Below the pieces are notes generated by a model. It made no database searches and was not told the origin of the DNA. It saw nothing but the letters and a program-made list of their open reading frames with translations. A program made the position numbers and the translations under genes. A stretch of 64,000 bases of DNA from contig CAWHTE010000001.1 of NCBI GenBank assembly GCA_963832165.1, positions 768,001-832,000 on the forward strand, read 5' to 3'. Origin of the DNA: an uncultured delta proteobacterium. Lineage in GTDB: Bacteria; Myxococcota_A; UBA9160; SMWR01. Positions 13,434-32,517 of the stretch are shown piece by piece. Numbering within the stretch: the stretch's first letter is position 1; each line of letters opens with the position of its first letter.

Positions 13434-14246
13434 TCACATCCGGAAGTGACGCCGGATCAGGCGCAGGCCGAGCCGCTCCGGCAGCCAGCGCTGCGCGAAC
13501 GATACGAGCCTGGCATCCCGACCCACCGCGTAGCGGATGCGCGGATTCCGCGCGCGCAGCGCGCGCAGGACCGCGTGCGCGACGAGCTCGGGGCCGGGCG
13601 CGCTCGCGAGCGAGCGCTCGACCACCTCGCGACAGCGCGCGACGCGCTCGCCATAGCTCGAATCTCTAACTAGATCGAAGTCGGTCGCCTCGTTGAACGG
13701 AGTCCGGATGTCACCGGGCTCGATCAGCGATACGCGGACGCCGGTTCCGATCAGCTCGTTGTGCAGCGCGCGCGCGAGCGCGTCGAGAGCTGCTTTGCTC
13801 GCCGAATAATGAGCCTGGAACGGGATCGGCGCGCGGCCCGCGAGCGAGCCCACGATCACCACGCGCGCAGACTCGGCTCTGCGCAGCGTGGGCAGCGCGG
13901 CGCGCAGCACGCGCAGCGTGCCGAACCAGTTCGTCTCGAACTGCTCGTGCGCGTCGCGCAGCGGAACCTCTTCGACGCTGCCGAAGATCCCGTAGCCCGC
14001 GTTACATACGACTGCGTCGAGGCCACCATTTCGATCGATGGCACTCTGCACGCCCTTCGTCACGGAGTCGTCGTCGCGCACATCCATCGCGACCCACGCG
14101 ATGTGGGGTGCGCGCTGCGCCGCAGTTGCCGGATCGCGCGAGGTCCCCACGACCTGGAAGCCGGCTCGCGCGAGCAGGTCGCTCGCGGCGGCGCCGATGC
14201 CCGACGAGGCGCCCGTGATCAGCACGGACGGTCCGATCGGCCTCAT
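13434..14246 (-). CDS. SDR oxidoreductase
   Basis: TGASSGIG, CNAGYG, YSASK, LIEPG. Confidence 0.9.
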   Translation of the reverse strand: MRPIGPSVLITGASSGIGAAASDLLARAGFQVVGTSRDPATAAQRAPHIAWVAMDVRDDDSVTKGVQSAIDRNGGLDAVVCNAGYGIFGSVEEVPLRDAHEQFETNWFGTLRVLRAALPTLRRAESARVVIVGSLAGRAPIPFQAHYSASKAALDALARALHNELIGTGVRVSLIEPGDIRTPFNEATDFDLVRDSSYGERVARCREVVERSLASAPGPELVAHAVLRALRARNPRIRYAVGRDARLVSFAQRWLPERLGLRLIRRHFRM

Positions 14247-14373: not shown

Positions 14374-14379
14374 TATAAT
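14374..14379 (+). promoter_or_regulatory. Consensus -10 box for the marR-type gene
   Basis: TATAAT in an AT-rich divergent intergenic region (14247-14413). Confidence 0.55.
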
Positions 14380-14413
14380 GCTCCCCGCTGTACCGACTGA
14401 TCTGGAGGCTCTT

Positions 14414-14896: not shown

Positions 14897-14905
14897 TCGG
14901 TTCCT

Positions 14906-14937
14906 CCCCGCGCACGCTGCTAGCGTGCGCGGGGTTT
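14906..14937 (+). terminator. Intrinsic terminator-like hairpin
   Basis: Perfect 13-bp stem CCCCGCGCACGCT-GCT-AGCGTGCGCGGGG followed by TTT. Confidence 0.6.
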
Positions 14938-15683: not shown

Positions 15684-15753
15684 GGCGGGATCGCTTCGCT
15701 CTCCCGCCCTACGCGTTCTCGTAGGGCGGGAGGAGCCGAAGGCGGATCCCGCC
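15684..15753. repeat. Inverted doublet of GTAG-family REP elements
   Basis: GGCGGGATC..CTTCG..CTCCCGCCCTAC, 8-nt spacer, GTAGGGCGGGAG..CGAAG..GATCCCGCC; between convergent genes. Confidence 0.8.
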
Positions 15754-15763: not shown

Positions 15764-16726
15764 TTACCGCAGTGCTCCGGTCCGCCACGCGCGGATCAGC
15801 ACGGGCCATCCGAACAGCCACGGGTGCCGGCGCTGGCGCTCGCTCGCTTCGAGCCGGACGCCGGAGTGGCGCTCGACCTTCCAGAGCGCGTAGGGAACCC
15901 AGTCGCCGAACGTGACGGCGGTCTTCGCGAGCTGGAGCAGCCCGATCCACTTCGCGGCCGCACTGCGACCGCTCTCGCGCGGGAGAGGCGTCCGCACGCG
16001 CAGCGCGCCATCGGCGCCGTGTTCGATCGCTCCGCTCTCGAGCAGCGCTGCGAGCGCTTCGGCGAACCGCGCATCGAATCGCTCGCGCTGGTCGTCGTAG
16101 ATCGCGTCGCTCGCGCCTTCGCGCTCGGGGCGCAGCTCGGCGGCGTAGCTTTCGCGGAAGATCTCGCGCCAGAGCGCGCCCGTGTCTTCGGGGTGCCAGC
16201 CGTGCCGGTGCGCCGCGAGCCCCACGCGCAGCGCGGTACAGACGGCATCCGCACACGCCTCCGCGAGCGCATCGCGCGCTGCTGCGTCGCGCACGAACGC
16301 GGCGCCGATCGGCTGCGCGAAGCGTGCCCAGATCCCGCCGCGGTGCGTCTCGCCGCGGCACGCCAGCGCGAGGTCGGCCTTCGAGACGACCGCGTATTTC
16401 GCGCCGAGCCGTGCGCTGCCCGTGCCGAGCTCGATGTAGAACACGTTGGGCGGCAGCAACGCGTTGGCGACCGCGAGTGCGCGCGATCGATACGCCGAGC
16501 GGTAGTCGTCCACGATCGCGTAGAAGTCGTGCACGCCCTCGCTTGTGGCGCGCCGCAGGCAGGAGCCGTAGAACGCGATCGAGGACACCGCAGATCCGTG
16601 GCGCGCGCCGATCTCGCGCGCGAGCGCGGTGGCGTCGGCCGAGATCGGCGCGGAGAGCTCGCGGACCAGGCTCGCGATCAGGCGCGCGCGCGCGTTGCTC
16701 GCGGTGTTCGTCGCGGTGCGCTCCAA
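15764..16726 (-). CDS. Tam41-like nucleotidyltransferase (putative lipid cytidylyltransferase; CpgC-like)
   Basis: IAFYGSCLR...VHDFYAIVD, LPPNVFY, AKYAVVS, IWARFAQP resemble Tam41 motifs; adjacent to lipid kinase. Confidence 0.65.
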   Translation of the reverse strand: MERTATNTASNARARLIASLVRELSAPISADATALAREIGARHGSAVSSIAFYGSCLRRATSEGVHDFYAIVDDYRSAYRSRALAVANALLPPNVFYIELGTGSARLGAKYAVVSKADLALACRGETHRGGIWARFAQPIGAAFVRDAAARDALAEACADAVCTALRVGLAAHRHGWHPEDTGALWREIFRESYAAELRPEREGASDAIYDDQRERFDARFAEALAALLESGAIEHGADGALRVRTPLPRESGRSAAAKWIGLLQLAKTAVTFGDWVPYALWKVERHSGVRLEASERQRRHPWLFGWPVLIRAWRTGALR

Positions 16727-16735
16727 ATCGCGACC

Positions 16736-17692
16736 TCAGGCGCGCAGGAAGCGGATCCGGCGGTCGGCACTCAGCTCGATCCGCTCCTCGGGCTCCGGAT
16801 CGAACAGCTCCCCGTCCACGGTGAAGCCACAGCTGATCTGGAGCTCGGCGCGTTCGACCCGTTCGCTCACATAGCCGCGCTCGGGTGTGACCCAGCGCGG
16901 TGGCCGGCCGGCCAGGATTCCGGGCGCCGCGAATCCCATCCACCGCGCGCGGCTCGCCATCCCCGTGATCCGCACACCGCCCGGGCCCGTGCCCCAGAAT
17001 GGATTGATGCGCAGGAACAGCCGCTCGAGCGTGGACGAGATCAGCAGGTACAGCTCGGCGTCGACGAGGTCGCGCCCATCCACGCGCACCTGACACTTGT
17101 CGGGCGTGAGGATCCCCGAGGTCGGACGAAACGCGACCTTGGTCACGAGCGCACCCGTCACGACCCCCGCGCCGAACAGTCCTTGGCTGCGCCCGGGCGG
17201 AAACACGCGGTGCACGAGGCTGATCGCGCGGTAGATCAGTCCGGCGCCGAAGACCATCCCGTACTGGTCGGCAGCGCGCAGCGACGAGCGCACGCGCAGC
17301 ACCGGGCGCGCGACGGCGAGCCGGTCGAGTCGGCCTGCGTCGGCCGCTTCGAGCAGGCGCGCGAGGCCGCGCGCGGGATTGCGGTCGGCGCCGAGGTCGG
17401 TCGAGATCGAGTTCGTGCGGCCGCCGCGCAGCGGCGCCACCGCGGGCAGGGCGACACGGTTCGGGTCGCGCAGCAGCTCGGAGAGCGCGAGTTGAACCGT
17501 GCCATCGCCTCCGTTGAGCACGAGCACGTCGATCGCGCTGCGCTCGAGCTCGGCGAGCGCCGGGACGAGATCGCTCGCGGTCGTGGTCTCCACCCGGAAG
17601 ACGTCGGGGCGCCCGCGCAGGACCTCCGCGACGCGCTGCGCGTCCCGCCCTCGGCGCCCGGCTCGCAGGTTGTTCAGGACGCCTATCCGCAC
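16736..17692 (-). CDS. Diacylglycerol/sphingosine kinase family (putative ceramide kinase, CpgB-like)
   Basis: VLNGGDGTV, PLRGGRTNSISTDLG, FTVDGELF. Confidence 0.85.
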   Translation of the reverse strand: MRIGVLNNLRAGRRGRDAQRVAEVLRGRPDVFRVETTTASDLVPALAELERSAIDVLVLNGGDGTVQLALSELLRDPNRVALPAVAPLRGGRTNSISTDLGADRNPARGLARLLEAADAGRLDRLAVARPVLRVRSSLRAADQYGMVFGAGLIYRAISLVHRVFPPGRSQGLFGAGVVTGALVTKVAFRPTSGILTPDKCQVRVDGRDLVDAELYLLISSTLERLFLRINPFWGTGPGGVRITGMASRARWMGFAAPGILAGRPPRWVTPERGYVSERVERAELQISCGFTVDGELFDPEPEERIELSADRRIRFLRA

Positions 17693-17695
17693 CGA

Positions 17696-18745
17696 CTAAC
17701 CTCCGGGCCTCATGGTCTTCGCTCGCTGCGCGAAACTTGCGGCGCTGGATTGGGACGAGCTCGGATCTTCCGAGGGGCGGAGCAGGGTGAAGCTCGCGAT
17801 CATCGCGCCGCGCGGCAGGGATTTCCCGGCATTCGACGCGAGCTCCGACGTCGCGTCGGCCCAGATCCGCCTCGGGCGCGCACCGAACCAGTACAGCATC
17901 CGCACGAGGCGCGGTAGAGCGTCGAGCGGGTCGACCGAGAGGTGAGGGGCGCGGATCGCGATAGACCCGCTCAGTGCCCTGCCGGTCGGCCGGATCTGGT
18001 GCGGTAGCGGCGGTCCATCGCCCTCGGCTCGCCAGTCCTCGAGCGCGACGGTCTCCGGGCGCAGCGTCCGCACCCCGCGCGCGCCGCGCCAGCCGAGCCA
18101 GCTCCGCTGCGCGCCGCCCACGAGTCGCTCGTGGACGAACAGCGATGCGTCGTTCGCCGTGAGCCGATGCACGTCGACGCGCAGCGCCGAGACCTCGGGC
18201 TCGCACACGCGGTGGCGCGTGCGCACGACCGTCGCTGCACCGCGCAGCTCGCGCGGCGCGGCCATCCCCGTGCGCCAGACGCGCGCGGTGGCGGGGCGGC
18301 CGAGCACGAGCAGGTCGACTTCGGGGTCGCCCGGAAAGATCCCAACCGACTTCGACCGCGGCGCCTCGATCGCGAGCCGCACCTTCACTCCGCGCCGGTC
18401 GTTGTCCACCTCGAACACCTGCGCGGCCTCGCCGAGCTCGAGCCGGGTCGAGCCGATCCGGACGCGGTCGCCCGAATCGCTCACCTCGAACTCGCCCTCG
18501 CTGCGCCCGTTCTGGAACCGCGTCTGCGTGCCATCCGGCGCGATCCAGAAGCCGACTCCCGCTGCGTTGCGCTCGCCGGGCCCCACGCGCGTCACGATCA
18601 CGCGCGCATACACGCGGTCTCCGCTCGCGAACGCCGCGGTGACGTCCCAGTACACGCCCGCGCAATCGCCCTCGGGCAGGATCTCGGCGCGCGCTCCGAT
18701 CGCTGCGAATGCAAGCGCGAGAAGCGCGGCGATTGCGGCTCTCAT
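17696..18745 (-). CDS. Secreted beta-rich hypothetical protein
   Basis: ATG overlaps upstream stop (ATGA); signal peptide MRAAIAALLALAFAAIGARAE; alternating beta-strand pattern. Confidence 0.7.
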   Translation of the reverse strand: MRAAIAALLALAFAAIGARAEILPEGDCAGVYWDVTAAFASGDRVYARVIVTRVGPGERNAAGVGFWIAPDGTQTRFQNGRSEGEFEVSDSGDRVRIGSTRLELGEAAQVFEVDNDRRGVKVRLAIEAPRSKSVGIFPGDPEVDLLVLGRPATARVWRTGMAAPRELRGAATVVRTRHRVCEPEVSALRVDVHRLTANDASLFVHERLVGGAQRSWLGWRGARGVRTLRPETVALEDWRAEGDGPPLPHQIRPTGRALSGSIAIRAPHLSVDPLDALPRLVRMLYWFGARPRRIWADATSELASNAGKSLPRGAMIASFTLLRPSEDPSSSQSSAASFAQRAKTMRPGG

Positions 18746-19911
18746 TCCTCCCAGGGTACCGGGGCCTCCCCGCGCGCGCGCTGGGTCTCCGCCCGGACGA
18801 GGCGCAGCGCGTGAAAGCCGAGCGAGGCGATCGTCCACAGCGCGACCATCACGAGCCCGAGGTCGGGTCGGCCTGCGATCGCGCCGACACTGAGCAGGAT
18901 CAGGTTCGGGTTGCGCCGCGCGGTGATCGTGCGGAACAGCCCGTCGATCGGGCGCCAGGAATGCGTCTCGAAGCCGAAGCGCGCCAGGAACGCGCCTTCG
19001 AGCGCGCGCCCGATCACGTATCCAGCCACCACCACGACGGTTGCGAACTCATGGCCCGGTCCCAGCCCCACTCCCCACGCCCACCACCAGAAAGGGGGGT
19101 GGATCAGATCGAGACCGTGGTCCATCACGTCGCCGATCCGGCTCGAGGTGAGCGTGACGCGCGCGAGCTTTCCGTCGACGGTGTCGAGGAACGTCATCGC
19201 CCACGCGCACACGAGGCCCGTGCCGAACGCGCCGCGCGCGAACAGGAGCACGGCCGCGACGGCGAGCACGCCGCTCAGGACCGTCACCGTGTTCGGGTGC
19301 ACGCCGCGCCGCGCGCACCAGTGCGTGACGGCCTGCGCGGGTCGCGGCCATACCCACTTCGTGACGAGGTCGGTCAGTCCCTTGTACGACGCGTCGAACG
19401 TGCGCCGCTCCACCTCGGCGGCCGTGTCGGAGCGGGCCGGAAACACATACGGAGGTTCGCGCTTGCGCAGCTTCGCGACGTAGGCGGCCACGAGCTCGGA
19501 CGGTGCGACGCGGCGCGCGCCCGGCAGCGCATCGGCGTCCGCGCGCGCGAGCGCGGCGCACGCGGCGTGCGCGCGCTCGGACGGGACGTGGGCGCCGACG
19601 GGCCCGAGCTCGGGTGTCACGAGCAGGGTGTCGCGCGCGCCGCGCAGGCCTTCGACGAGGCGCTCGTCGAGCACGACGTCGGCGCGCAACGCGAGCACCG
19701 CCCCGTGCTCGCTTGGCGGAGCCTGCGCGTCGACCACGCGCGGATCGAGGCAGCCGGCGCGCCGCAGCGAGCGCAGCAAGCGCTCCTCGGGGGCGAGCCC
19801 CCAGATCCGCACCTCGCGCGGATCGGCCGCGGGGCCGGAATCGCAGCGCAGATCTCGGCGGACCACCCAGCCCGCCGGTGCCGGCGCAGATTCAGAAGGC
19901 GCGGCGGTCAT
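18742..19911 (-). CDS. CDP-alcohol phosphotransferase with N-terminal soluble domain (CpgA-like)
   Basis: Signature DTVDGKLARVTLTSSRIGDVMDHGLD; HPNTVT. Confidence 0.9.
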   Translation of the reverse strand: MTAAPSESAPAPAGWVVRRDLRCDSGPAADPREVRIWGLAPEERLLRSLRRAGCLDPRVVDAQAPPSEHGAVLALRADVVLDERLVEGLRGARDTLLVTPELGPVGAHVPSERAHAACAALARADADALPGARRVAPSELVAAYVAKLRKREPPYVFPARSDTAAEVERRTFDASYKGLTDLVTKWVWPRPAQAVTHWCARRGVHPNTVTVLSGVLAVAAVLLFARGAFGTGLVCAWAMTFLDTVDGKLARVTLTSSRIGDVMDHGLDLIHPPFWWWAWGVGLGPGHEFATVVVVAGYVIGRALEGAFLARFGFETHSWRPIDGLFRTITARRNPNLILLSVGAIAGRPDLGLVMVALWTIASLGFHALRLVRAETQRARGEAPVPWEE

Positions 19912-19961
19912 CGGGCAGCGCGGATCCTATCACACGCTGCCGCGCCGAGTTAGGCTGGTGA

Positions 19962-20894
19962 ATCCCAGCGGAGCCGCCCATCGTCACGCTCGTACACATC
20001 TCGGACCTGCACGCGACGAGCGTGCCGACCTTCGCGCTCGAGCCGCTGCGCTCGAAGCGGTTCCTGGGCTGGCTCTCGTGGCACGTGCGCCGGCGGCGCC
20101 GCTATCTCCCCGCAGTGCTCGAAGCGATGCTGGCCGATCTCGCGGAGACCGCGCCGGACCAGATCGCGATCACGGGTGATCTCACGCAGATCGCGCTCGA
20201 GGAGGAGTTCCGCGAAGCGGCCAAGTGGCTCGAGCGCTTCGGCCCGCCCGGGCGCGTGAGCGCGATCCCGGGCAATCACGACGCGTACGTGGCGGTGCCG
20301 GGCGAACGCGGGTGGCGGCTGTGGTCCGACTATCTCGCGAGTGACGGCGCCGCGTCCGCGTTCCGCGGAGATCCCGCCGAGTTTCCGAGTGTTCGCGTGC
20401 GCGGCGCGCTCGCGCTCGTGGGGGTCTGCACGGCACAGCCGACTCCGCCGTTCGCCGCGACGGGCCGCGTCGGAGCCGATCAGCTCGCGCGGCTCGACGG
20501 CGTGCTCGAGCGGCTCGGCGCGGCGGGCCTGTGCCGCGTGGTCATGATCCATCATGCGCCGGTGGTGGGCCTCACGATCCGGCGGCGTTCGCTGCTCGAC
20601 GCCGCTGCGTTCGGCGAAGTGCTGCGCCGGCGCGGCGCCGAGCTGGTGCTGCACGGCCATCTGCACCGCACCACGCTCGAGGCACTGCCGGGGCCCGAGC
20701 GGCCGATCCCCGTGGCCGGCGTGCCGTCGGGCTCGCACGCGGGTCCCGAGCCCGCGCGCTGTGCTGCCTATCATCTCTACGAGATCGACGGAGCGCGCGA
20801 CGGGTTCACGATCCGCCGCCGTGTGCGCGCGTGGGATCCCGCCCTCGACCGTTTCACCGCGCGCGGGCCCGAGGCGGGCGAGCCGATCGCCTAG
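19962..20894 (+). CDS. Calcineurin-like metallophosphoesterase; start uncertain
   Basis: HISDLH (upstream of the ORF-track start), ITGDLT, IPGNHD, MIHH, LHGHLH. Confidence 0.88.
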   Translation: MPAEPPIVTLVHISDLHATSVPTFALEPLRSKRFLGWLSWHVRRRRRYLPAVLEAMLADLAETAPDQIAITGDLTQIALEEEFREAAKWLERFGPPGRVSAIPGNHDAYVAVPGERGWRLWSDYLASDGAASAFRGDPAEFPSVRVRGALALVGVCTAQPTPPFAATGRVGADQLARLDGVLERLGAAGLCRVVMIHHAPVVGLTIRRRSLLDAAAFGEVLRRRGAELVLHGHLHRTTLEALPGPERPIPVAGVPSGSHAGPEPARCAAYHLYEIDGARDGFTIRRRVRAWDPALDRFTARGPEAGEPIA

Positions 20895-21682
20895 ATCCCG
20901 CCGTCGCCGGCCGCGAGGATCTTCTCGGCGAGCGCGAGGTCGGCGGCCTTGTCGACGTCGATCGCGGCCACTGCATCGAGCAGCACGGGGAGGATCTTCG
21001 CTCCGGCGCTGCGCGACACCTGGCGCAACCCGCCGTGGAGGTCGAGCGTGCCCGCGAGGTACTCGAGCGCGAGGGTCGGACCGATCGCCGCGACCATGCG
21101 CCACGGCTTCTTGCGGTGGCGCTCTGCGCGCGCGAAGAACTCGGCGGCACGGCGTGCGCGCGCGTGCTGGAACGCGAACAGGTTCGCGCCCGTGTACGAG
21201 CCGCAGCGCAGCCGGATCCAGGTCCGAGCGGCGCTCGCGTCGGCGTCGGCGAACGCGGATCGCTCGACCACACCCACCGCGACGTCGGCCTGGGTCGCCG
21301 CAGCGCCCTCGAGGAAGCGGTCCACGCGCGCGCCCGAGAGCAGCGCGTGATCGGCGGTGGTCACGAGCACGCGCTCGTCACCGATCGAGTCGAGCGCGTC
21401 GGCCACGCTGCGCGCCGGGGACTCCTTGCTGCGGTGCACCGGGATGTCGCGAAACGCCGCGAGCTCGGGCACCGACTCGAGCACCTCGGGCGTGTCGATG
21501 CTGACCCAGATCCGCCCGACGTGGCGCGCGCCGCGCAGCGCGGTGAGCACGCGCGCGAGCATCGGTACGCCTGCCACGGGCAGTAGTGCGCGGTGCGAGG
21601 CGCCGCGCGAGCGCGCGAGCGGATCATCGGGACCGCGGCGCCCCGCAAGCACGAGCGCTGTGTAGGGCTGGATGTCGATCAA
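20891..21682 (-). CDS. NTP transferase (MobA-like; CpgD-like cytidylyltransferase)
   Basis: TTG 21682 overlaps upstream stop; ALVLAGRRG, PMLARV, LVTTADHALL, YTGANLF, AIDVDK. Confidence 0.85.
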   Translation of the reverse strand: MIDIQPYTALVLAGRRGPDDPLARSRGASHRALLPVAGVPMLARVLTALRGARHVGRIWVSIDTPEVLESVPELAAFRDIPVHRSKESPARSVADALDSIGDERVLVTTADHALLSGARVDRFLEGAAATQADVAVGVVERSAFADADASAARTWIRLRCGSYTGANLFAFQHARARRAAEFFARAERHRKKPWRMVAAIGPTLALEYLAGTLDLHGGLRQVSRSAGAKILPVLLDAVAAIDVDKAADLALAEKILAAGDGGI

Positions 21683-23394
21683 GCAACCGCCTCGCGTGCG
21701 ACGGCCGGCAGTGCGACGCGCTCTGCGCGACCGTCGGCGATTCGGTACACCAGATCGGCGACGCTCGCGAGCGCGGGGTGATGCGAGATCGCCACCACCG
21801 TGGTGCGGCCGCGCAGCGACGCCACCGTCTGCCACACCGCGGCTTCGCTCTCGGCATCGAGCGCGGCCGTCGCCTCGTCGAAGATCAGCAGGCGCGGCTC
21901 GTGCACGAGTGCACGCGCGATCGAGATCCGTTGGCGCTGCCCGCCCGAGAGCAGTGCGCCGCGCTCGCCGACGCTCGCGTCGAGCCCCGACGGCAGTGCG
22001 CGCACGAATTCCCACGCGCCCGCGAGCCGCAGCGCGGCCTCGACCGCCGCGTCGTCGAGCGACGGGTCGCCCAGAGTCACGTTGCGGCGCACGGTGTCGT
22101 GGAGCATCGGGAGATCCTGGGGCACGTAGCCCACCTGACGGCGCCATGCGCCGAGGTCGAGCTCGCCGATCGGCACGCCGTCGATTCGCACGTGCCCCGC
22201 GGTGGGCGACACGAGCCCCGTGATCAGATCGGTGAGCGTGGTCTTCCCGATTCCGGACGCGCCCACCACCGCCGTGATGCATCCCGACGGAATCTCGAGC
22301 GACAGCCCGTCGAACAGCGTGCGGCCGTCGCGCTCGAGGCCGACGCTCTCGATCGAGATCCCACGCGCTAGCTCGACGCGGCGTGCGCCGCCCGACGGCT
22401 CGCACGCCGCTTCGGCCTCGCGGATCCGGCCGTCGATCGCCCAGAGCGCGCTCGTCTCGCTGATCATCGCCTGGTACTTGCCCTGGATCGAGGCGACGCG
22501 CGTGAGCGCGCGCGTGAACACGAGACCGAGCACGAGCGTGCTCGAGAGCGGAATCGAGAAGAGGCGCAGCGCGCCGAACAGGCCCAGCGCGAGCAGCGTG
22601 CCGACCACGGGCTCCTGCAGCGCGCGCAGGGATTCGCGCGCGAGCACGCGGCGCTGGAGCTGGCGGTTCAGGCGCTCGGTGTCGCTGGCCAGGAGCGGCC
22701 CGACCGCCGCCTCGCGCCCAGTCGACTTGAGCAGCTTCACAGCGCCCAGCGTGTCGGTGGTGCGCGTGAGCAGCGAGTCGAGCAGGGCGGTCTGCTTGCG
22801 GCCCGCGCGATGCGCCATGCGCACGAGCGCGGAGAGCAGCAGGAGCATCAGCCCGGCTGCCGCCGCCGCGACCAGAGTGCCGCGCCACGACACCGCGCAC
22901 GCGATCGCCACGTACACGACCGTCTCGACGCTGTAGCTCGCGATCAGCGCGAGGTACTCGAACGCGTACGAAGCGCGGTCGGCCTCGGTCGCCATCGCAT
23001 TGGCAGCGCGGCCGGCCGGCTGACGCGATGAGTAGCTCCAGCGCGCTGCGAGCAGCGCGCGCATCAGGCGCAGCCGGAGATCGGTGGCGATCCGCGCCAC
23101 CGCGTAGCCGACCTGGCGTTTCGAGAGCAGCACCAGGAGGGCCTTGATCCAGAGCGCGCCGACCACGATCGCGAACAGCGGCGCCGGATCGGGCGGAATT
23201 CCGAGCGCGGCGAGCACCTGCCCCACGCGCGCCTCGTAGCCGGTCGATGCGATGTGAGATCCCGTCGCGACGGAGAGCAGCGGGAGCAGGGTGGAGAGGC
23301 CGAGCCCCTCGGTGGCGCCCGCGACGAGCAGCCACACGAGCACGGCGGTGCAGCGCGCCGGATACGCCGTGAGGAAGTAGCGCAGCGTATTCAC
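21679..23394 (-). CDS. ABC exporter, fused TMD-NBD (MsbA-like)
   Basis: GTG 23394; Walker A GASGIGKT, YVPQD, LSGGQRQR, LIFDEATAALD, AISH. Confidence 0.92.
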   Translation of the reverse strand: MNTLRYFLTAYPARCTAVLVWLLVAGATEGLGLSTLLPLLSVATGSHIASTGYEARVGQVLAALGIPPDPAPLFAIVVGALWIKALLVLLSKRQVGYAVARIATDLRLRLMRALLAARWSYSSRQPAGRAANAMATEADRASYAFEYLALIASYSVETVVYVAIACAVSWRGTLVAAAAAGLMLLLLSALVRMAHRAGRKQTALLDSLLTRTTDTLGAVKLLKSTGREAAVGPLLASDTERLNRQLQRRVLARESLRALQEPVVGTLLALGLFGALRLFSIPLSSTLVLGLVFTRALTRVASIQGKYQAMISETSALWAIDGRIREAEAACEPSGGARRVELARGISIESVGLERDGRTLFDGLSLEIPSGCITAVVGASGIGKTTLTDLITGLVSPTAGHVRIDGVPIGELDLGAWRRQVGYVPQDLPMLHDTVRRNVTLGDPSLDDAAVEAALRLAGAWEFVRALPSGLDASVGERGALLSGGQRQRISIARALVHEPRLLIFDEATAALDAESEAAVWQTVASLRGRTTVVAISHHPALASVADLVYRIADGRAERVALPAVAREAVA

Positions 23395-25594: not shown

Positions 25595-26406
25595 GCGCGG
25601 GTGCGGTCGAGCGCCTCGCGAATCGCGACCACGTCGTCGAGCAGGGCATCGAGGTCCGCGAGGCGGATCTGGCACGCGGAATCGCAGGGCGCGTGGTCGG
25701 GATCGGGGTGCGTCTCCACGAACAGCGCATCGATGCCGAGCGCCGCCGCTGCGCGCGCGAGCGGCGCCACGTAGCTGCGGTCTCCGCTGCTCGCTCCCTC
25801 GCCGGCGCCCGGATGCTGCACCGCGTGCGTGGCGTCGAGGCACACCGGCGCCACGCTGCGCATGGCGTACAGGCCGCGCATGTCCACGATCAGATCGTGG
25901 TAGCCGAAGCTCGTGCCGCGCTCGGTGATCATCACGCCGCCGGCGCCGAATCCCTTCGCCTTGTCGACGGCGTGCACGACGTCGTCGGGCGCCATGAACT
26001 GGCCCTTCTTGATGTTGATCGGGAGGCCGGTTTCGGCGCAGGCCTTCACGAGATCGGTCTGGCGCGAGAGGAACGCGGGGATCTGCAAGAGCTCTGCGAC
26101 CTCGGCGATCAGCTTCGCCTGGCCGGGCTCGTGCACGTCGGTGCAAACGGGCAGCCCCGAGGCCGCCTTCACCTGCTCGAGGATGCGCAGACCCGTGTCG
26201 AGCCCGACGCCGCGGTACGAGTCGCGGCTCGAACGGTTCGCCTTGTCGAACGAGGCCTTGAACACGGCCGGCAGCCCGTGGCGTTCCGCGATCGCCGCGA
26301 CGCCGTCGGCGCACGCGAGCGCAATGTCGAGGCTCTCGATCACGTTGAGGCCCGAGATCAGCAGGAGGGGCGAGCCGCCACCGACGGAAATGTCGCGGAT
26401 TCGCAT
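25591..26406 (-). CDS. kdsA: 3-deoxy-8-phosphooctulonate (KDO8P) synthase
   Basis: FKASFDKANRSS, LQIPAFLSRQTDL, IKKGQF, TERGTSFGY, DATHAVQ, FVETHPDP; GGAGGG RBS. Confidence 0.95.
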   Translation of the reverse strand: MRIRDISVGGGSPLLLISGLNVIESLDIALACADGVAAIAERHGLPAVFKASFDKANRSSRDSYRGVGLDTGLRILEQVKAASGLPVCTDVHEPGQAKLIAEVAELLQIPAFLSRQTDLVKACAETGLPINIKKGQFMAPDDVVHAVDKAKGFGAGGVMITERGTSFGYHDLIVDMRGLYAMRSVAPVCLDATHAVQHPGAGEGASSGDRSYVAPLARAAAALGIDALFVETHPDPDHAPCDSACQIRLADLDALLDDVVAIREALDRTRA

Positions 26407-26479
26407 GGGGTTGCCCTCCGGGGCGTCCTGGTTCTCGAGGCGGGCCGGCATTCTGGATAGCGAGACTGGCCCGCGATGG

Positions 26480-27229
26480 CTAACGCGGGGCAAGGGCGGG
26501 TCGAGTCGCGATCTCGCGGCGTGCGCCGTCGAGATCGGAGGAGGAGTCGATCTCCCGCCACCACAGACCGCGCACGCTCGCGGTCTCGACCGCAGAGGCC
26601 TGTGCGATCTGGTGAATCACCGAGAGGTACCACTGGCGCATGGCCTCGGGGCGGCGCACCGCCTCCTCGAGCGCGGTCGCGAACAGCTTCGGTCCGGAGC
26701 CGCGAAACGCGAGCAGACCGATCGATTCACCGCCGACCATCGCGCGCGGCAGGCATTTGTCGACGGCCAGCAGGCGCCCGCGCGCATCGACCGACACCTT
26801 CATGTCGTCGTCGTCGTAGGCCGGCTTGCGATCGATCGCGAGTGCGACCGGCGCAGAGGACAAATCGAGCACGCGCTCGATGACGCCGTCCTCGAAGATC
26901 GTGTCGCCGTTCAGCAGCAGGAAATCCTCGGTCATGGCCCCGCGGGCGAGCCAGCAGCTGATCAGATTGTCGGAGCTGCCGTAGAAGGGGTTGAACAGCG
27001 TTTCACACGCGATGCCGGGTACCGGGTTGGCGGCCAGCCACGCCTCCACGCGTTCGGAGCCGAAGCCGATCACCACCACGGCGCGCTCGACGCCAGCGCG
27101 CGCGAGTGCGCTGAGCTGCCAGCCCAGGATCGGCTCGTCGCCGCGGACCGGCAGCAGGCATTTCGGATTCTCTTCGGTCAGAGGCAGCAGACGCTTGCCC
27201 TGACCGGCGCTCAACACGACCGCCTTCAT
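26480..27229 (-). CDS. Sugar-phosphate/phosphocholine cytidylyltransferase family (LicC-like)
   Basis: MKAVVLSAGQGKRLLPLTEENPKCLL, LLLNGDTIF, DDDDMKV, GESIGL, WREIDS. Confidence 0.88.
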   Translation of the reverse strand: MKAVVLSAGQGKRLLPLTEENPKCLLPVRGDEPILGWQLSALARAGVERAVVVIGFGSERVEAWLAANPVPGIACETLFNPFYGSSDNLISCWLARGAMTEDFLLLNGDTIFEDGVIERVLDLSSAPVALAIDRKPAYDDDDMKVSVDARGRLLAVDKCLPRAMVGGESIGLLAFRGSGPKLFATALEEAVRRPEAMRQWYLSVIHQIAQASAVETASVRGLWWREIDSSSDLDGARREIATRPALAPR

Positions 27230-27455
27230 GGCTCCCTTCGACTGGGCCTCATGTGCGGGTGATCTGTGCCGCGGCCGTTGCTCCGAGACGCTCTAGCGCC
27301 CTAGGATTGGCCTCTGAGGGGGCGTCGGAAAGCTGCGTTGATCCCATCGCATTGTCAATGGGACGGGCGGTCGGCCCCACGGGGTTTTCCGGGTAGCTCC
27401 CTCGCGCTCGGATCAGCATCGCGCCCGCCTCCCGCTGAGAGGGTCCCGCGTCGTA

Positions 27456-29714
27456 ATGGCCGGAGTCGAGCCCGCGATCCGCCGTCCCGGCCTCACGCTG
27501 TCGCGTTATGTGGCCCGCGAGGCATTGGGCCCGATCGCGATCGCGGTCGCCGGCCTCACGATCGTCGTGCTCACGCGCGATCTGATCGGTTTCACCGAGC
27601 TCGTACTGAATCGCGGCGTCGGCGCGCTCGAGATGGGTCGCATCACGTTCTTCGAGGCGGTGCAGGTCGCGACCCTGGTGCTGCCGTTCGCGGGGTTGAT
27701 CGGTGCGCTCGTCGCGCTCGGCCGCCTCGGTGCCGACAACGAGATCCTCGCGATCGAGTCGGCGGGCGTGAGCGCGGCGCGCCTGTCTGGGCCGATCGGA
27801 CGGCTCGCCGTGTTGCTCGCGCTCGTGGCCGGATCGCTCTCGCTGTTCGCCGCGCCCGCGGCGCAGCGCGGACTCGAGAGCGCGCTCGCCCGCATCGCGC
27901 GCGATCAGCCGTGGACCCAGATCCGCGCGGGCACGGTGAACCGCTTCGGCGGTTGGCAGCTCGAGGCGAAAGAGGTGACAGCGAGGGGCGACGAGCTGGA
28001 GGGCATCCTGCTCTGGGTGCCCGACATCGAGGAGACGATCTTCGCGCGCAGCGGAAGAGTCGGCGCGGGCGGCAACGGATCGCTCCAGCTCGAGCTCGAC
28101 CACGGGATCCTCGTGCTCTCGCCCGCACTCGGCCCGCGGCAGTTCCGCTTCGACCGCCTCCAGACCGTGCTGCCCAAGAGCGACGAGCCCGGGCCCTGGA
28201 AGCCGACCGATCCGTTCCGGGGCCACTCGCTCCGTTCGCTCCACGCGGCGCTCGACGACGGCGATCGCACGCTCTCCGACGGGGCGAGGCGCGAGTGGCA
28301 CCGGCGCTTCGCGACACCCGTGACCGCAGTGCTGCTCGGCCTGCTCGCTGCGCCGCTGTTCCTGACCCGCGGCCACTTCTCGCGCGCGGGCGGTTCCGTA
28401 CTCGGCATCGCCGTCACGGTCGCGACGTTCGCGCTGGCCCAGCTCGGCGAAGGGCTCACGCAGGCGGGCGTGACCGGGATCGCGAGCGGCGTCTGGCTGC
28501 CGAATGCCGTGCTCGCGACGCTGGCCGCGATCTCGTTCTGGCACGCGCGCCGGGAGGGGGTGTTGCGGCGCTCGCTCGACCGGCTGCGCGGTCGCACGCT
28601 GGCGGCGCTGCCGGGACGGCGGCCCAGCAAGACCCGTCGCCGCGCGCTCGACCGCTACGTCGCCTCGCGCTTCATCCAGCTCGTCACGCTCGCGTTCGGC
28701 GCGATCCTGACCGCGTACCTGATGGTCGACGTGATGGAGCGCCTCGACTGGTTCGCGCGCTACGGCGCGACCGGCGAAGAGGTGGTGCGATTCTACGCCG
28801 CGCGCATCCCACTGCTCGCCTCGCGCGTGGTGCCGATGGCGCTCATGGTCGGGAGCGCGTTGATCGCGAGCCTGCTCGCCGTCGAGGGCGAGCTGACCGG
28901 GATGCGCGCGTGCGGGATTCCGGCGATCCGCGCGATGGTCTCGGTGCTCGTGATCTCGGTGTTGGTGACTCCGCTCTACTTCCTGCTGCGCAACGAGGTG
29001 GTGCCGCGCACGAACGCGATCGCCGATCAGCTCAAGCAGACGGAGATCAAGGCGGACTACTACCTGCGCCTCGCGGAGAGCCGCAAGACCGCGATGTGGC
29101 ACCACGTCGGATCGCAGGTGATCGAGGCCGCGCGCTTCGACCTCGAGAGCGGCGACGCGGTGGACATCACGGTCTACGACCTCGGCGAAGACGGCCTGCC
29201 CGTGAGCCGCGCCGACGCGCGCGCGGCGCGCCACGTCGGCGGCGGCATCTGGCGGCTGCTCGATCCCACGCGCCTCGAGCTCACCAGCGATCACGTCGCG
29301 CGCGTTCCCGCGCGCACGTACGCGGAGCTCGGGAACGAGTTCTCGCGCGAGCTCGACCCGATGCATCTCTCGCTCGGCGAGCTCGCGCACGAGATCGAGA
29401 TGGTGGCTGCCGAGGGATACGACCCGCGCGCGCTGCGCGTCGACTACTACGTGAAGATATCCGAGGCGTTCGCGTGCATCGTGCTGCCGTTCTCGGTGCT
29501 GCTGTTCTCGGTCCTGGGTCCGCCGTTCGCTCCCCCCGCGCAGACGCTGCTCGTGTCCGGGATCCTCGTGGTCGCGCACGTGCTCCTGACCGGCGTCGGC
29601 ACCTCGCTCGGCTACAGCGGCGCGCTGCCGCCCGTGATGGCGGGCTGGCTGCCGAACGGCCTGTTCGCGGGCTACGTCGCGGCGATGGCCGCTCGACTCT
29701 GGAAGCAGATGTGA
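27456..29714 (+). CDS. Fused LptF-LptG (YjgP/YjgQ) permease
   Basis: Two complete permease repeats: LSRYVARE...LGRLGADNEILAIESAG...WLPNAVL and LDRYVASRF...EGELTGMRACGI...WLPNGLF. Confidence 0.9.
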   Translation: MAGVEPAIRRPGLTLSRYVAREALGPIAIAVAGLTIVVLTRDLIGFTELVLNRGVGALEMGRITFFEAVQVATLVLPFAGLIGALVALGRLGADNEILAIESAGVSAARLSGPIGRLAVLLALVAGSLSLFAAPAAQRGLESALARIARDQPWTQIRAGTVNRFGGWQLEAKEVTARGDELEGILLWVPDIEETIFARSGRVGAGGNGSLQLELDHGILVLSPALGPRQFRFDRLQTVLPKSDEPGPWKPTDPFRGHSLRSLHAALDDGDRTLSDGARREWHRRFATPVTAVLLGLLAAPLFLTRGHFSRAGGSVLGIAVTVATFALAQLGEGLTQAGVTGIASGVWLPNAVLATLAAISFWHARREGVLRRSLDRLRGRTLAALPGRRPSKTRRRALDRYVASRFIQLVTLAFGAILTAYLMVDVMERLDWFARYGATGEEVVRFYAARIPLLASRVVPMALMVGSALIASLLAVEGELTGMRACGIPAIRAMVSVLVISVLVTPLYFLLRNEVVPRTNAIADQLKQTEIKADYYLRLAESRKTAMWHHVGSQVIEAARFDLESGDAVDITVYDLGEDGLPVSRADARAARHVGGGIWRLLDPTRLELTSDHVARVPARTYAELGNEFSRELDPMHLSLGELAHEIEMVAAEGYDPRALRVDYYVKISEAFACIVLPFSVLLFSVLGPPFAPPAQTLLVSGILVVAHVLLTGVGTSLGYSGALPPVMAGWLPNGLFAGYVAAMAARLWKQM

Positions 29715-32477
29715 TTCGCGCGTTCGCGGGCCTCGCGCTCGCGCTCGCGGGAACCGTCGCCGGCACAGCGCGCGCAGAGCTCGTCGCGGCGCAGATCACG
29801 CCCGAGAGCGCCGCGCGGCTATCGATCGGCGGACCCGATGCGATCGGCGGAGTCGGCGACTGGTGGCTCGCCAACGACGTCGTCGAGGTGGTGATCGACG
29901 ACGTCGCGAGAGCGTTCGGCATCTCGACCCATGGCGGCACCGTGGTCGACTTCGGCCTGCGCGACCGCTCGGGCGAGGATCAGTTCGCGCGGCTCTCGCC
30001 GATCGTGAACCTCTCGCAACGCGTGGTCGTGGGCTACCGATCGATTCGCGCCGAGGTCGACCCGCAGCGCCGCTTCGCTCGCATCATCGCGACGAGCCCT
30101 GGGCTGCGCACACTGCCGCGCGGCTCGCGCTGGGCGCGCGCGCTCGATCCGCTCGTGCCCGATGCCGAGCAGGTGTCGGCCGTGCGCGTCGAGACGGTCT
30201 ACGAGCTGCGGCCGGGGGAGCCGTTCGTGCGCATCGAGACTGCGCTCACGAATGCGGGAAGCATCCCCGCACCCGTCTTCGCATTCGGCGACGTCTGGAT
30301 GCGCGGCGGCCGCGGCGGCCGTGGCTACACGGGGGACGTTCTGGTTCCCGAGCGCACGCGCGGCTTCTCCGTGCGCGACATGTCGAGCAACATCCAGCGC
30401 TCGCTGGCCGCGCTCGCGACCTTCACGCACGCCGCGCTGCTCGGCAGCGCCGGGCTTCCGCCGATCGCCTACGCACTCTACGCGCCCGATCGCGCCGCGC
30501 GCGGCCTGCCGCTGTACGGGATCGCGGGCGAGCACGCGACGCTCGTCTTCGGCCTGATCGGCGACCCGCCGGTCGCCGAGCTCGGCGTGATCTCGCTCGC
30601 ACGCGCGATGTTTCGCGAGCTGGCGCCGGGCGAGACGTGGCGTTGGCAGCGGCGCCTGCGTGCGGCGGGTCGGAACGATCTCTCCGCCGTGGACGGCGCG
30701 ATCCGGCGCGAGCTCGGCGATGAGCCCGACGGCGGCGTCGAGGGACGCGTCGCCGTCGCCGGCCGGCGCGCCGTGGTGTTGGTCGACACGCCGGAAGGCG
30801 CGACGGTCACGGAGATCGGCGTCGACCCGGAGACCGGCGCGTTCCGCGCCGCGCTGCCGCCCGGTGACTACAGCGCTCTGCTGCGCATCGAAGCCGGCGA
30901 GCCGCAGCGCCGCGCGCTGCGCGTCGATGCGGGGCGCAGCGCTGCGCTCGCGTTCGATGCGCCGCCCGCGCCCGCGCGCCTCGCGTTCGAGCCCGCGTTC
31001 GCCGATCGCGGTCCCGGTCGCATCGAGATCCGCGGGCGCGACGGCACGCCCGATCCCGTGTTCGGAGACGATCTGCTCGGCGCGTCCCTCGACGGCGGAA
31101 GATCGCTGCCGAGCGGCAGCGCGTCGTCGTGCGGTGGCCTTCCTGGGCAACGACCGCGACCCGCGCGAGGTGGCGCTCGCGCCGGGCCGCTACCAGCTCG
31201 TGGCCACGCGCGGATTCGATTGGCAGGTCGCGTCGCAGGAAGTCGAGCTGCGCGGTCCGGGCGCGCGCGCGGTGATCGAGCCGTTCACGCTGCGGCCACT
31301 CGCGCCGATTCCGGGATTCGTCACGGCCGACCTGCACGTGCACGGCGAGGCCAGCGACGATTCGCAGGCGAGCAACGTCGATCGCCTGCGGCGCTTCGTC
31401 GCCGAGGGCGTGGACGTGCTGGTGGCGACCGATCACGACCACGTCGCGAACTACGAGCCGGCGCTCGCGCGCCTGCACCTCGCGGGCCGCGTGCGCGTGG
31501 TGCACGGCGTGGAGGTGACGGGCAGCGGGCCGAGCGCGGCCGCGCTCTGGACGATCGGGCACCACAACGCGTGGCCGATCCCGTATCGGCCACACGCGCA
31601 CCGGCATGGCGCGCCGCCGAGCCAGAACCGCGCCGTCGGTGCGCTCTACGCCGAGCTGCGCCGCTCGTACGGCGCGCGCGTGGTGCAGCTGAATCACCCG
31701 CGGCCGACGCCGAAGAACATCGAAGACGGCGACCGGAACCTCGCGTTCTTCGAGCACCAGGGCGAGGGGCACGCGTTCGACCCGCGTCTTCCGCTCGCCG
31801 CGTCAGAGAACGAGCCGCTCGTGCGGGGCACCGGCGCCGACGGCACGCGCGCGATCGACTTCGATGCGATCGAGATCGCGAACGGAGATTCGTGGCCGCA
31901 ATATCTCGCGACGCGCGCGGACTGGTATGCGCTGCTGCGCCAGGGCGTGCGGCGCACCGCCACTGCGAACTCCGACAGTCACGCGCCCGCAGAGCTGATC
32001 GCCTATCCGCGCAACTACGTGCAGGTGGGGGTCGAGCGCGGGGATCCCGAGCAGTTCGACGCCGCGTTGCGCGCGGGGCGCAGCTTCGGCACCACCGGGC
32101 CGCGCGTGCGGATGCTGCGGGTGAACGGCGGATCGCTCGGAGACCTGGTCCCGGCCGAGCGCGGCCGGGTGCGGGTCGAGTACGAGGTCGACGGCGCGGG
32201 CTGGGTACCGATCGACGAGGTGCGGATCCTCGTGAACGGCGTGGTCGCGCACGCGGGTCCCGAGCGCGTGGGAATCGCCGATCTCGCGTTCAAGCGCGAC
32301 GGCTTCGTGACGCTCGAGGTCGGAGCACCGCTCGACGCCGATCCCGCCGAATGGATGCGCGCGCACCCGGGGCTCTACACCGAGGTGATCGCGCCCGGCT
32401 TCGTCTCCGCCGCGTTCACCAATCCCGTGTTCGTCGACGTGGACGGGAATGGCCGCTTCGATCCGCCGGGGCTGTAG
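29711..32477 (+). CDS. Secreted CehA/McbA-type PHP metallohydrolase; frameshift near 31130
   Basis: GTG overlaps LptFG stop; signal peptide; GGVGDWWLANDVV; then ADLHVH, ATDHD, GHHNAWP, QLNHPR, IEIANG, ANSDSH in a second frame. Confidence 0.82.
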
Positions 32478-32478
32478 C

Positions 32479-32517
32479 GGCGGGATCCGCTCGCTTCGCT
32501 CGCTGCTCCCGCCCTAC
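32479..32517. repeat. GTAG-family REP element (same family as 15684-15753)
   Basis: GGCGGGATCC..GCTTCGCT..CTCCCGCCCTAC between convergent genes. Confidence 0.8.

What the first reader, a model, noticed from the sequence alone, without database searches (positions are those of the whole stretch)
15764..32477. Candidate undescribed anionic glyco(sphingo)lipid synthesis and export cluster: Cpg-like core plus kdsA, GT fusion, MsbA-like exporter and single-chain LptFG
Seen: 12 contiguous, mostly stop/start-overlapping genes, bounded on both sides by the same REP family. They encode a Tam41-like nucleotidyltransferase, DAG/sphingosine-type kinase, secreted protein, CDP-alcohol phosphotransferase, metallophosphoesterase, NTP transferase, ABC exporter, GT-A/ELM1 fusion, KdsA, LicC-like cytidylyltransferase, LptF-LptG fusion and PHP hydrolase. 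Established: in Caulobacter crescentus the CpgA-D proteins (including the ceramide kinase CpgB and cytidylyltransferase CpgD) make ceramide phosphoglycerates, a dedicated LptF/G paralogue pair is encoded in the same region, and these lipids allow survival without lipid A. Inference: this is a related pathway in a distant lineage, extended with Kdo supply and glycosyltransferases, making a phospho-/Kdo-glycosylated ceramide that acts as an LPS analogue. No spt, bCerS, cerR or lpx gene is in the window, so a ceramide backbone is not proven.
Basis: partly seen in the sequence, partly recalled or inferred. Interest (0 to 1): 0.85.

Follow-up and report, generated by a model that had tools for sequence, protein, structure and literature searches.

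The report
Sphingolipid head-group cluster with Kdo transferase
This bacterium carries counterparts of all six head-group genes of the Caulobacter anionic sphingolipid pathway, its own export genes, a Kdo-transferase-like enzyme and the only Kdo synthase gene found in its genome, so it likely makes a charged outer-membrane sphingolipid, possibly capped with the LPS sugar Kdo.

Summary
The 12 genes are real and conserved across the family. Six match the Caulobacter ceramide-phosphoglycerate head-group genes (CpgA-D, CC_1153, CC_1158) by family, and by best hit to plasmid sphingolipid clusters; no Caulobacter sequence was compared. A serine palmitoyltransferase lies elsewhere in the genome; 51 of 56 cpgA-bearing genomes of the class have it. 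The genome also has lipid A genes, MsbA and separate lptF/lptG, so the fused LptFG and the ABC exporter are a second export set and the lipid coexists with LPS. The ELM1 domain belongs to the family of the CMP-Kdo transferase KdoT, keeps its catalytic arginine, is fused to a GT8-fold domain and recurs inside spt clusters of Proteobacteria. kdsA is the single housekeeping copy, moved into the cluster. Against: no convincing ceramide synthase in 40 of 41 genomes, one congener has the cluster without spt, KdoT's known acceptor is LPS, and two genes are frameshifted in this assembly. Verdict: new variant of a known pathway; a Kdo-capped sphingolipid is plausible, unproven. The scan noted this cluster type before on other DNA.

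The parts
15684..15753 (.). Two inverted copies of a GTAG-type REP element at the convergent junction left of the cluster
   Evidence: 113 exact core copies in the genome
15764..16726 (-). CpgC/CC_1161 counterpart, Tam41-like nucleotidyltransferase, 320 aa
   Evidence: 32-38% to the gene beside the kinase in plasmid spt clusters, only hit in the genome; Atlas Tam41 lead; no Pfam hit
16736..17692 (-). CpgB/CC_1160 counterpart, DAG/ceramide-type lipid kinase, 318 aa, GGDG motif
   Evidence: PF00781; 29-32%, best genome hit of plasmid-cluster kinases; motif
17696..18745 (-). Secreted-looking protein with AttH/CrtC-type tandem lipocalin fold, 349 aa; candidate periplasmic lipid carrier or tailoring enzyme
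   Evidence: model pLDDT 90; best match 2ich AttH Z 21.9, rmsd 3.5, 274 aligned; Atlas CrtC/Svf1 clusters; conserved at this place
18742..19911 (-). CpgA/CC_1159 counterpart, CDP-alcohol phosphotransferase, 389 aa
   Evidence: PF01066; 43-49% to plasmid-cluster genes
19980..20894 (+). CC_1158 counterpart, calcineurin-like metallophosphoesterase; apparent ATC start
   Evidence: PF00149; 45% to the Roseomonas cluster gene, same divergent placement against cpgA; start context
20891..21682 (-). CC_1153 counterpart, MobA-like NTP transferase
   Evidence: PF12804; 39-46%, only hit in the genome
21679..23394 (-). ABC exporter (type IV), 571 aa; predicted inner-membrane flippase in place of the Wzx-like CC_1166
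   Evidence: PF00664+PF00005; 44% to the exporter of the Pseudomonas spt cluster against 28% for the genome's MsbA
23391..25594 (-). GT8-fold domain fused to an ELM1/KdoT-family GT-B domain; single-base frameshift near 25290 in this assembly
   Evidence: PF06258 E 9e-63; GT8 by profile and fold of intact relatives; SRRL motif; frameshift
25591..26406 (-). kdsA, Kdo-8-phosphate synthase; the only copy found in the genome
   Evidence: TIGR01362 334.6 bits over cut-off 314; the other PF00793 gene is AroG-type (36, 46)
26480..27229 (-). CpgD/CC_1152 counterpart, LicC/IMPCT-like cytidylyltransferase, 249 aa
   Evidence: 45-51% to plasmid-cluster genes; PDB hits LicC 1jyk and 4jd0 (19), the latter being CpgD's top structural match in PMC12275187
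27456..29714 (+). Single-chain LptF-LptG fusion, 752 aa; second Lpt permease set
   Evidence: TIGR04407 at 15-362, TIGR04408 at 398-745; separate lptF and lptG elsewhere; the hit of plasmid-cluster LptF/G queries
29711..32477 (+). CehA/McbA-family PHP metallohydrolase, about 920 aa in relatives; single-base frameshift near 31130; looser link to the cluster
   Evidence: NF038032 143.5 bits over 80; frameshift; separated from lptFG or missing in many relatives
32480..32517 (.). REP element at the convergent junction right of the cluster
13434..14246 (-).
   Evidence: PF00106; near the cluster in 7 of the 17 cluster loci and directly after spt in G081; PDB hits do not name it

Best explanation
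The cluster holds counterparts of the six Caulobacter head-group genes plus a second LptFG and an ABC exporter, and likely builds and exports an anionic phospho-sphingolipid of the CPG/CPG2 type that its GT8-KdoT fusion is predicted to decorate further, most likely with Kdo. Steps: Spt encoded elsewhere makes the sphingoid base (gene shown, activity inferred); reduction and N-acylation enzymes are not identified (the SDR at 13434 is a lead; no convincing bCerS); CpgB phosphorylates the lipid; CpgC, CpgD (CDP-glycerate), CpgA, the MobA-like transferase and the phosphoesterase add phosphoglycerate units (by analogy with Caulobacter; inferred); the ELM1 domain transfers Kdo from CMP-Kdo and the GT8 domain adds a sugar from a nucleotide-sugar (inferred from family, motif and fold); the ABC exporter flips the lipid; the single-chain LptFG extracts it with the shared LptB, LptC and LptA (inferred; one lptC found); the lipocalin-fold protein may carry or tailor it in the periplasm. 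The lipid would sit beside LPS, not replace it, in this genome. About 0.8 for the phospho-sphingolipid core alone, about 0.35 that Kdo itself ends up on it.
For: Six-for-six family match to CC_1161/1160/1159/1158/1153/1152 (S1 Text of PMC11324152). Each window gene is the best genome hit of the matching gene in Roseomonas and Pseudomonas plasmid clusters that also carry spt, acpR, cerR, aasR and lptFG (the Pseudomonas phosphoesterase gave no hit). Spt at G000:C7:832192-833382: best NCBIfam model SerpalmtaseCFB, 530 bits, best PDB hit Sphingobacterium-type SPT 3a2b, E 1e-126 against 1e-99 for the next family; BioF is a separate gene. Class survey of 151 genomes: cpgA 56, spt 91, both 51; ELM1 62, of which 56 have spt. 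spt lies inside the cluster in G039, G046, G081 and G141, and bCerS beside it in G141 and L008. KdoT, an ELM1-family protein, is a proven CMP-Kdo transferase needing an SRRT arginine (PMC12856342); that arginine is present in 108 of 108 domains collected. ELM1 with a GT8-like partner, fused or adjacent, lies in spt+cpg clusters of three proteobacterial plasmids. Of 80 metagenome ELM1 loci, 40 carry a cpg or bCerS gene (26 of 39 loci of 8 kb or more), 6 carry spt, 0 carry waaA/lpxA/lpxB/lpxK. kdsA sits in the cluster in 11 of 11 family genomes read but at another conserved site in 11 of 12 other order members. In G023 and G016 kdsA, kdsB, waaA and ELM1 were all not found, while cpg genes and spt remain.
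Against: No Caulobacter protein was compared directly. Spt is below the curated cut-off (530 against 640). A bCerS profile finds a strong hit in 1 of 41 genomes; this genome's hit is weak (E 3e-20) and confined to 3 congeners. G001 (95% complete) has all 12 genes but no spt at the syntenic site or elsewhere; G050, G143 and G152 have cpgA and ELM1 without an spt hit. CpgB also phosphorylates DAG in vitro. KdoT's only known acceptor is Kdo2-lipid IVA and it cannot start Kdo addition. 21 of 56 cpgA genomes lack ELM1 and 27 of 62 ELM1 genomes lack cpgA; G015 and G017 keep kdsA in the cluster without ELM1. kdsB lies elsewhere. The fusion is frameshifted in this assembly. The genomes and metagenome loci are mostly kin, so the counts overstate independence.
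Confidence: 0.55

Rival explanations
1. The Cpg core makes plain CPG/CPG2, while the GT8-ELM1 fusion and kdsA serve the LPS inner core (a third Kdo plus a hexose, as KdoT and GnaT do in Acinetobacter) and are only co-located.
For: KdoT acts on Kdo2-lipid IVA; the genome has the lipid A pathway; kdsA is single-copy housekeeping; ELM1 is not found where waaA is not found, which fits an LPS role too; second ELM1 loci in some relatives include an LpxL-family acyltransferase; 27 of 62 ELM1 genomes have no cpgA hit.
Against: 0 of 80 nearest ELM1 loci lie by lipid A genes, 40 by cpg/bCerS genes; the module travels on plasmids inside spt clusters; 56 of 62 ELM1 genomes have spt against 35 of 89 without ELM1; the 10 cpgC-less order relatives have kdsA but no ELM1.
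Confidence: 0.2
2. The head-group enzymes work on a backbone other than home-made ceramide: diacylglycerol, a free or differently acylated sphingoid base, or ceramide scavenged from prey or soil eukaryotes.
For: No convincing bCerS in 40 of 41 genomes; G001 has the full cluster and no spt; three more cpgA genomes lack an spt hit; CpgB accepts DAG.
Against: 51 of 56 cpgA genomes have spt against 40 of 95 without cpgA; spt lies in the cluster in four genomes of four families, bCerS beside it in two loci; one apparent exception, G017, has an Spt-like fragment at a contig end beside mlaA.
Confidence: 0.15
3. In this strain the glycosyl add-on is dead (true frameshifts in the GT fusion and the PHP gene), or the ELM1 domain uses a donor other than Kdo, and only CPG-type lipid is made.
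For: Both frameshifts are in the assembly; family members lose the GT8 half or the whole gene; the donor of this ELM1 subfamily is untested and no KdoT sequence was available to compare.
Against: Both breaks are single bases in G/C-rich runs, the congener proteins compared are intact at 69-80% identity with no sign of faster decay in the window copy (108, 111).
Confidence: 0.1

Closest known systems
Caulobacter crescentus ceramide (di)phosphoglycerate locus CC_1168-CC_1152 (CpgA-D, CC_1153, CC_1158, LptF2/LptG2/LptC2); PMC9393093, PMC11324152, PMC10331486, PMC12275187, bioRxiv 10.64898/2026.04.12.717747
   Same: All six head-group gene families; adjacent cpgA-cpgB-cpgC; a second LptF/LptG set; Spt in the genome; LPS made as well.
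   Different: Myxococcota-type host (titles of nearest named hits), where the papers list Proteobacteria (S1 Text mentions delta-proteobacterial CC_1161 homologs); Bacteroidota-type Spt at another locus; no aasR/acpR/cerR orthologue and no convincing bCerS; LptF and LptG fused; ABC exporter instead of a Wzx-like flippase; one lptC only; added GT8-ELM1 fusion, kdsA, lipocalin-fold protein, PHP hydrolase.
Acinetobacter baumannii KdoT (A1S_2903, ELM1-like CMP-Kdo:Kdo2-lipid IVA transferase); PMC12856342, PMC10936431
   Same: ELM1 family (PF06258 here; 'ELM1-like' in the papers); SRR(T/L) motif with the essential second arginine.
   Different: Fused to a GT8-fold domain; lies among sphingolipid genes, not an LOS core locus; acceptor and donor untested; sequences not compared directly.
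Plasmid sphingolipid clusters of Pseudomonas sp. JS425 (pPNP1), Diaphorobacter sp. JS3051 (pDCB2) and Roseomonas spp. (annotated records, not characterised)
   Same: Cpg genes, lptF/lptG, ELM1 with a GT8-like partner (fused in JS425; not seen in the R. marmotae stretch), the same ABC exporter family in the first two.
   Different: They carry spt, acpR, cerR, aasR and bCerS in the cluster, have split LptF/LptG and show no kdsA in the stretches read.

Membership tests
Caulobacter-type Cpg phosphosphingolipid pathway | Six head-group genes (CpgA, B, C, D, CC_1153, CC_1158) | tested here: met
   Families against S1 Text; best hits through plasmid clusters. Caulobacter sequences themselves were not available.
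Caulobacter-type Cpg phosphosphingolipid pathway | Serine palmitoyltransferase in the genome | tested here: met
   Best family and best PDB hit are Spt; below the curated cut-off (530 against 640).
Caulobacter-type Cpg phosphosphingolipid pathway | bCerS ceramide synthase and CerR reductase | tested here: inconclusive
   Only a weak GNAT hit (E 3e-20, 94) limited to 3 congeners; CerR queries give E 1e-10 or worse; an SDR lead only.
Caulobacter-type Cpg phosphosphingolipid pathway | AcpR and AasR (Rhodobacteria-type acyl donor) | tested here: not met
   Best hits 27-30% for AasR and E 1e-5 for AcpR; PMC11324152 says Bacteroidetes-type Spt uses acyl-CoA instead.
Caulobacter-type Cpg phosphosphingolipid pathway | Dedicated second LptF/LptG in the locus | tested here: met
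   both domains in one open frame in 25 of 41 genomes (counted).
Caulobacter-type Cpg phosphosphingolipid pathway | CPG/CPG2 lipids produced | not testable with these tools
   Needs lipidomics.
KdoT (ELM1-like CMP-Kdo transferase) | ELM1 family GT-B domain | tested here: met
   PF06258, 212.6 bits.
KdoT (ELM1-like CMP-Kdo transferase) | SRRT motif with the second arginine | tested here: met
   SRRL in the window; second Arg in 108 of 108 domains, SRRT in 51. Equivalence to KdoT R180 rests on the motif text, not on an alignment.
KdoT (ELM1-like CMP-Kdo transferase) | Gene in an LPS/LOS core locus | tested here: not met
   Lipid A genes are on another contig (46); 0 of 80 nearest loci have them.
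KdoT (ELM1-like CMP-Kdo transferase) | CMP-Kdo donor, Kdo2-lipid IVA acceptor | not testable with these tools
   Needs an enzyme assay.
MsbA lipid A flippase | TIGR02203 membership and link to lipid A genes | tested here: not met
   217 bits against cut-off 602; a better candidate (467) lies near the lpx operon.
Tam41/Mmp37 cytidylyltransferase | PF09139 match | tested here: inconclusive
   No Pfam or PDB sequence hit; Atlas lead only.
GT8/GT24 GT-A glycosyltransferase | GT-A fold with DxD | tested here: met
   On intact relatives: Foldseek top hits GT8, E 3e-10, TM 0.55 (129); PF01501 weakly in 7 of 11 (82). The window has DTD; some relatives have lost the motif.

The most novel reading that the evidence does not exclude
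These bacteria make an LPS-like sphingolipid: a phosphoglycerate-ceramide capped with Kdo and a hexose by a two-domain GT8-KdoT enzyme, flipped by its own ABC exporter and extracted by a single-chain LptFG, with N-acylation by an enzyme other than bCerS. The same GT8/KdoT module is a mobile, undescribed add-on of sphingolipid clusters in Proteobacteria, and some family members may have dropped Kdo and LPS and rely on the sphingolipid alone.
Probability: 0.33. Interest if true: 0.85.

Novelty: new variant of a known kind. Interest (0 to 1): 0.58.

Why it matters
It extends the LPS-sparing anionic sphingolipid pathway to an uncultured Myxococcota-type lineage and names three testable gaps: a second acceptor class for the newly defined KdoT family, a ceramide N-acylation step without bCerS, and a different export set (ABC flippase, single-chain LptFG, lipocalin-fold protein). 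Culturable Proteobacteria carry the GT8/ELM1 module on plasmids, so the Kdo-sphingolipid idea can be tested directly. If it holds, Kdo would no longer be confined to LPS and capsules, and environmental Kdo or ceramide lipid markers would need rereading.

Tried and rejected
Repeat finder on the window returned only chance GC-rich families and missed the REPs. PDB sequence searches gave nothing for the kinase or CpgC and no CpgD entry. A second kdsA was rejected: the other PF00793 gene is AroG-type. A KdsD/KpsF gene over the cut-off was not found; only a partial SIS match. The GNAT at C7:416704-417768 was rejected as the family's ceramide synthase because it occurs in 3 of 41 genomes. A eukaryote-type TLC ceramide synthase search rang nowhere, controls included, so it shows nothing. 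The second DAG-kinase-like gene (C7:733073) is a weaker hit without lipid genes nearby. The window SDR could not be named as a ketosphinganine reductase (the tblastn printed nothing). The full-length GT8-ELM1 fusion was not folded; only the N-terminal domain of relatives was. The ELM1 tree is the quick tree, with long branches; I used it only to set apart 12 stand-alone rows, and read the neighbours of 4 such loci by eye, seeing no lipid genes. Paper searches for ELM1 with sphingolipid and spt, ceramide+Kdo+Myxococcota, UBA9160+sphingolipid and an LptF-LptG fusion found no description of this cluster; ELM1 with LPS found only the Acinetobacter papers. Subscription journals are not covered and the bioRxiv supplement was not seen.
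Full report
Observation. The window is 70% G+C throughout, with no shift over the cluster, and lies at G000:C1:768001-832000 of a 5.5-Mb, 11-contig assembly rated 89% complete. The nearest named relatives of the first gene are titled Myxococcota MAGs (78% identity); the class name UBA9160 used in one paper search is my guess. All 12 genes exist. They form four blocks with 6 of 11 junctions overlapping by 4 nt. The phosphoesterase is on the + strand; my first scans used the wrong strand. The GT/ELM1 gene and the PHP gene each have a single-base frameshift against intact congeners, which reads could not settle. The flanking REP family has 113 exact core copies in the genome and three in the window, at the two convergent ends.

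Relation to Caulobacter. S1 Text of PMC11324152 describes six genes needed for CPG/CPG2: CC_1161 (Tam41-like), CC_1160 (kinase), CC_1159 (PF01066), CC_1158 (calcineurin-like), CC_1153 (MobA-like) and CC_1152 (CpgD). The window has one gene of each family. I had no Caulobacter sequence, so I used annotated plasmid clusters found by tblastn: Roseomonas marmotae and Pseudomonas sp. JS425 (30), which carry spt, acpR, cerR, aasR and lptF/G with the same genes. Their CpgA, B, C, D and CC_1153 counterparts, and the Roseomonas phosphoesterase, have their best genome hit in the window at 29-51% identity, the range that S2 Table reports for orthologues among Proteobacteria. Catalytic motifs are intact.

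Backbone. Spt is at C7:832192-833382. Its best NCBIfam model is the Bacteroidota Spt (530 bits, cut-off 640), BioF is a separate gene (46), and its best solved relative is SPT 3a2b. In 151 genomes of the class, at least 85% complete, cpgA was found in 56 and spt in 91; 51 have both, 5 cpgA only, 40 spt only, 55 neither. spt lies inside the cluster in G039, G046, G081 and G141. Against this, a bCerS profile gives a strong hit in only 1 of 41 close relatives; this genome's hit is weak and limited to three congeners. G001 has all 12 genes and no spt, and three genomes of another genus have cpgA without an spt hit. A sphingoid backbone is likely, but how it is N-acylated is open.

LPS and export. 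The genome has lpxC (22), lpxB, waaA, lpxK, an MsbA candidate and separate lptF and lptG, one lptC beside genes that read as lptA and lptB and kdsB. The window's 752-aa LptF-LptG fusion is therefore a second set, like LptF2/G2, which share LptB in Caulobacter. Both domains lie in one open frame in 25 of 41 genomes and in none of the 10 order relatives lacking cpgC (counted from 58, 38). Fused LptFG proteins are, from recall, annotated in other phyla too. The ABC exporter is 44% identical to the exporter of the Pseudomonas cluster; the plasmid clusters read have either this exporter or a Wzx-like flippase, which suggests it is the flippase. The secreted protein folds as an AttH/CrtC tandem lipocalin; the Atlas also lists Svf1 clusters, and yeast Svf1 binds ceramide (PMC10038888, search listing only). 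The fold also holds hydratases and cyclases, so carrier or enzyme is open.

Kdo. kdsA passes the TIGR01362 cut-off and is the only copy found; 39 of 41 relatives have it, two with a second match. In 11 of 12 order members outside the family it sits at a different conserved site; in 11 of 11 family members read in the same call it sits in this cluster, and also in four genomes of another family. So a housekeeping gene was moved in. The neighbour gives a reason: its C-terminal domain is PF06258, the family of Acinetobacter KdoT, shown to be a CMP-Kdo transferase that depends on an SRRT arginine. The second arginine is present in 108 of 108 domains collected. The N-terminal domain of intact relatives is GT8/GT24-like by profile and fold. 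The pair recurs in spt+cpg clusters outside this lineage: fused in Pseudomonas JS425, adjacent in Roseomonas mucosa and Diaphorobacter. Of the best 80 of 267 confirmed metagenome loci, 40 carry a cpg or bCerS gene, 26 kdsA, 6 spt and none waaA, lpxA, lpxB or lpxK (queries were this genome's proteins, 41 loci are under 8 kb, many are kin or duplicates). In the class survey 56 of 62 ELM1 genomes have spt, against 35 of 89 without ELM1, but only 35 of 62 have cpgA. In G023 and G016 kdsA, kdsB, waaA and ELM1 were all not found while spt and cpg genes remain; three control relatives without ELM1 kept waaA and kdsB. This fits a Kdo donor but does not tell LPS from sphingolipid as acceptor. KdoT itself acts on Kdo2-lipid IVA only.

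Mechanism and odds. The most likely reading is an anionic phospho-sphingolipid pathway with a glycosyl add-on and its own inner-membrane export, working beside LPS: about 0.8 for the core, 0.55 for the whole with the GT fusion acting on this lipid, about 0.35 that Kdo is on it. Rivals are an LPS role for the GT fusion (0.2), a non-ceramide or scavenged backbone (0.15) and a dead or differently fed transferase (0.1). Gene content, families, motifs, folds and co-occurrence are shown here; every enzymatic step is inferred.

Novelty and sources. The core is a known pathway in a lineage not covered by the papers read. My searches found no paper on this cluster, on ELM1 in sphingolipid loci or on Kdo-ceramide. 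The scan's own notes record the same cluster type and the KdoT idea on other genomes; I reached the KdoT link before seeing them, and they are not independent support. One note (e1-2435721, untested here) suggests that ELM1 proteins may use acidic sugars other than Kdo. Read: PMC11324152 parts 1-4 of 9, S1 Text and part 1 of S2 Table; bioRxiv 2026.04.12.717747 parts 1-2 of 4 (supplement not seen; it may list further LptF2/G2 homologues); PMC12275187 part 1 of 4; passages of PMC12856342, PMC10936431, PMC10331486 and PMC9393093 (the KdoT alignment in Fig. S5 was not seen). Verdict: new variant of a known kind, interest 0.58.

Noticed in passing
window 19970-19982: The phosphoesterase has no in-frame ATG/GTG/TTG; an ATC (ATT in G001) follows a GGAG or GGGA element at the same place in all 5 genus members read, while more distant relatives appear to start with ATG. 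Possible conserved non-canonical start.
   Followed up: partly
G023 and G016; L233, L061, L129: kdsA, kdsB, waaA and ELM1 all not found; G023's lptF lies mid-contig without the lpx genes that flank it in G000, G009 and G015 (139); G016 shows only the fused LptFG. Possible loss of LPS with the sphingolipid kept; lpxC was not searched there.
   Followed up: partly
L113-L121, L128 (G004, G005, G007, G011, G013, G030): A second locus type with one or two ELM1 genes, a stand-alone GT8-like gene, sulfotransferases, sometimes an LpxL-family acyltransferase, an ABC exporter and another fused LptFG.
   Followed up: partly
G000:C7:832192-834492; L093-L112: spt is divergent from mlaA in 16 of the 18 relatives' spt loci read, usually with mlaC and in 6 with an MMPL-family gene (83, 104).
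   Followed up: partly
L213 (G001:C4): spt is absent between mlaA and the CBS gene in the middle of a 331-kb contig, although this genome keeps all 12 cluster genes.
   Followed up: yes
L010 and L092: Sphingolipid clusters on plasmids: one beside a class 1 integron with bCerS interrupted by an IS5 element (30, 33), one on a conjugative IncP plasmid with mercury resistance genes.
   Followed up: no
L005, L008, L063, L067 and loci: A fatty acid desaturase often lies next to cpgC, and a second cpgA paralogue often next to cpgD, in relatives; neither is in the window.
   Followed up: no
window 9327-15682: Hydrolase, MFS_2 transporter, SCP-x-type thiolase, SDR, MarR and LplA-like genes keep their place beside cpgC in many family members.
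   Followed up: partly
G000:C7:427166-428764: No full KdsD; an SIS domain sits at the end of a longer protein whose start looks like a sugar kinase and may be the arabinose-5-phosphate isomerase.
   Followed up: no
L050:10224-16940 (G000:C11): An arn-like operon (by eye from N-terminal sequences), which would suggest amino-arabinose modification of LPS.
   Followed up: no
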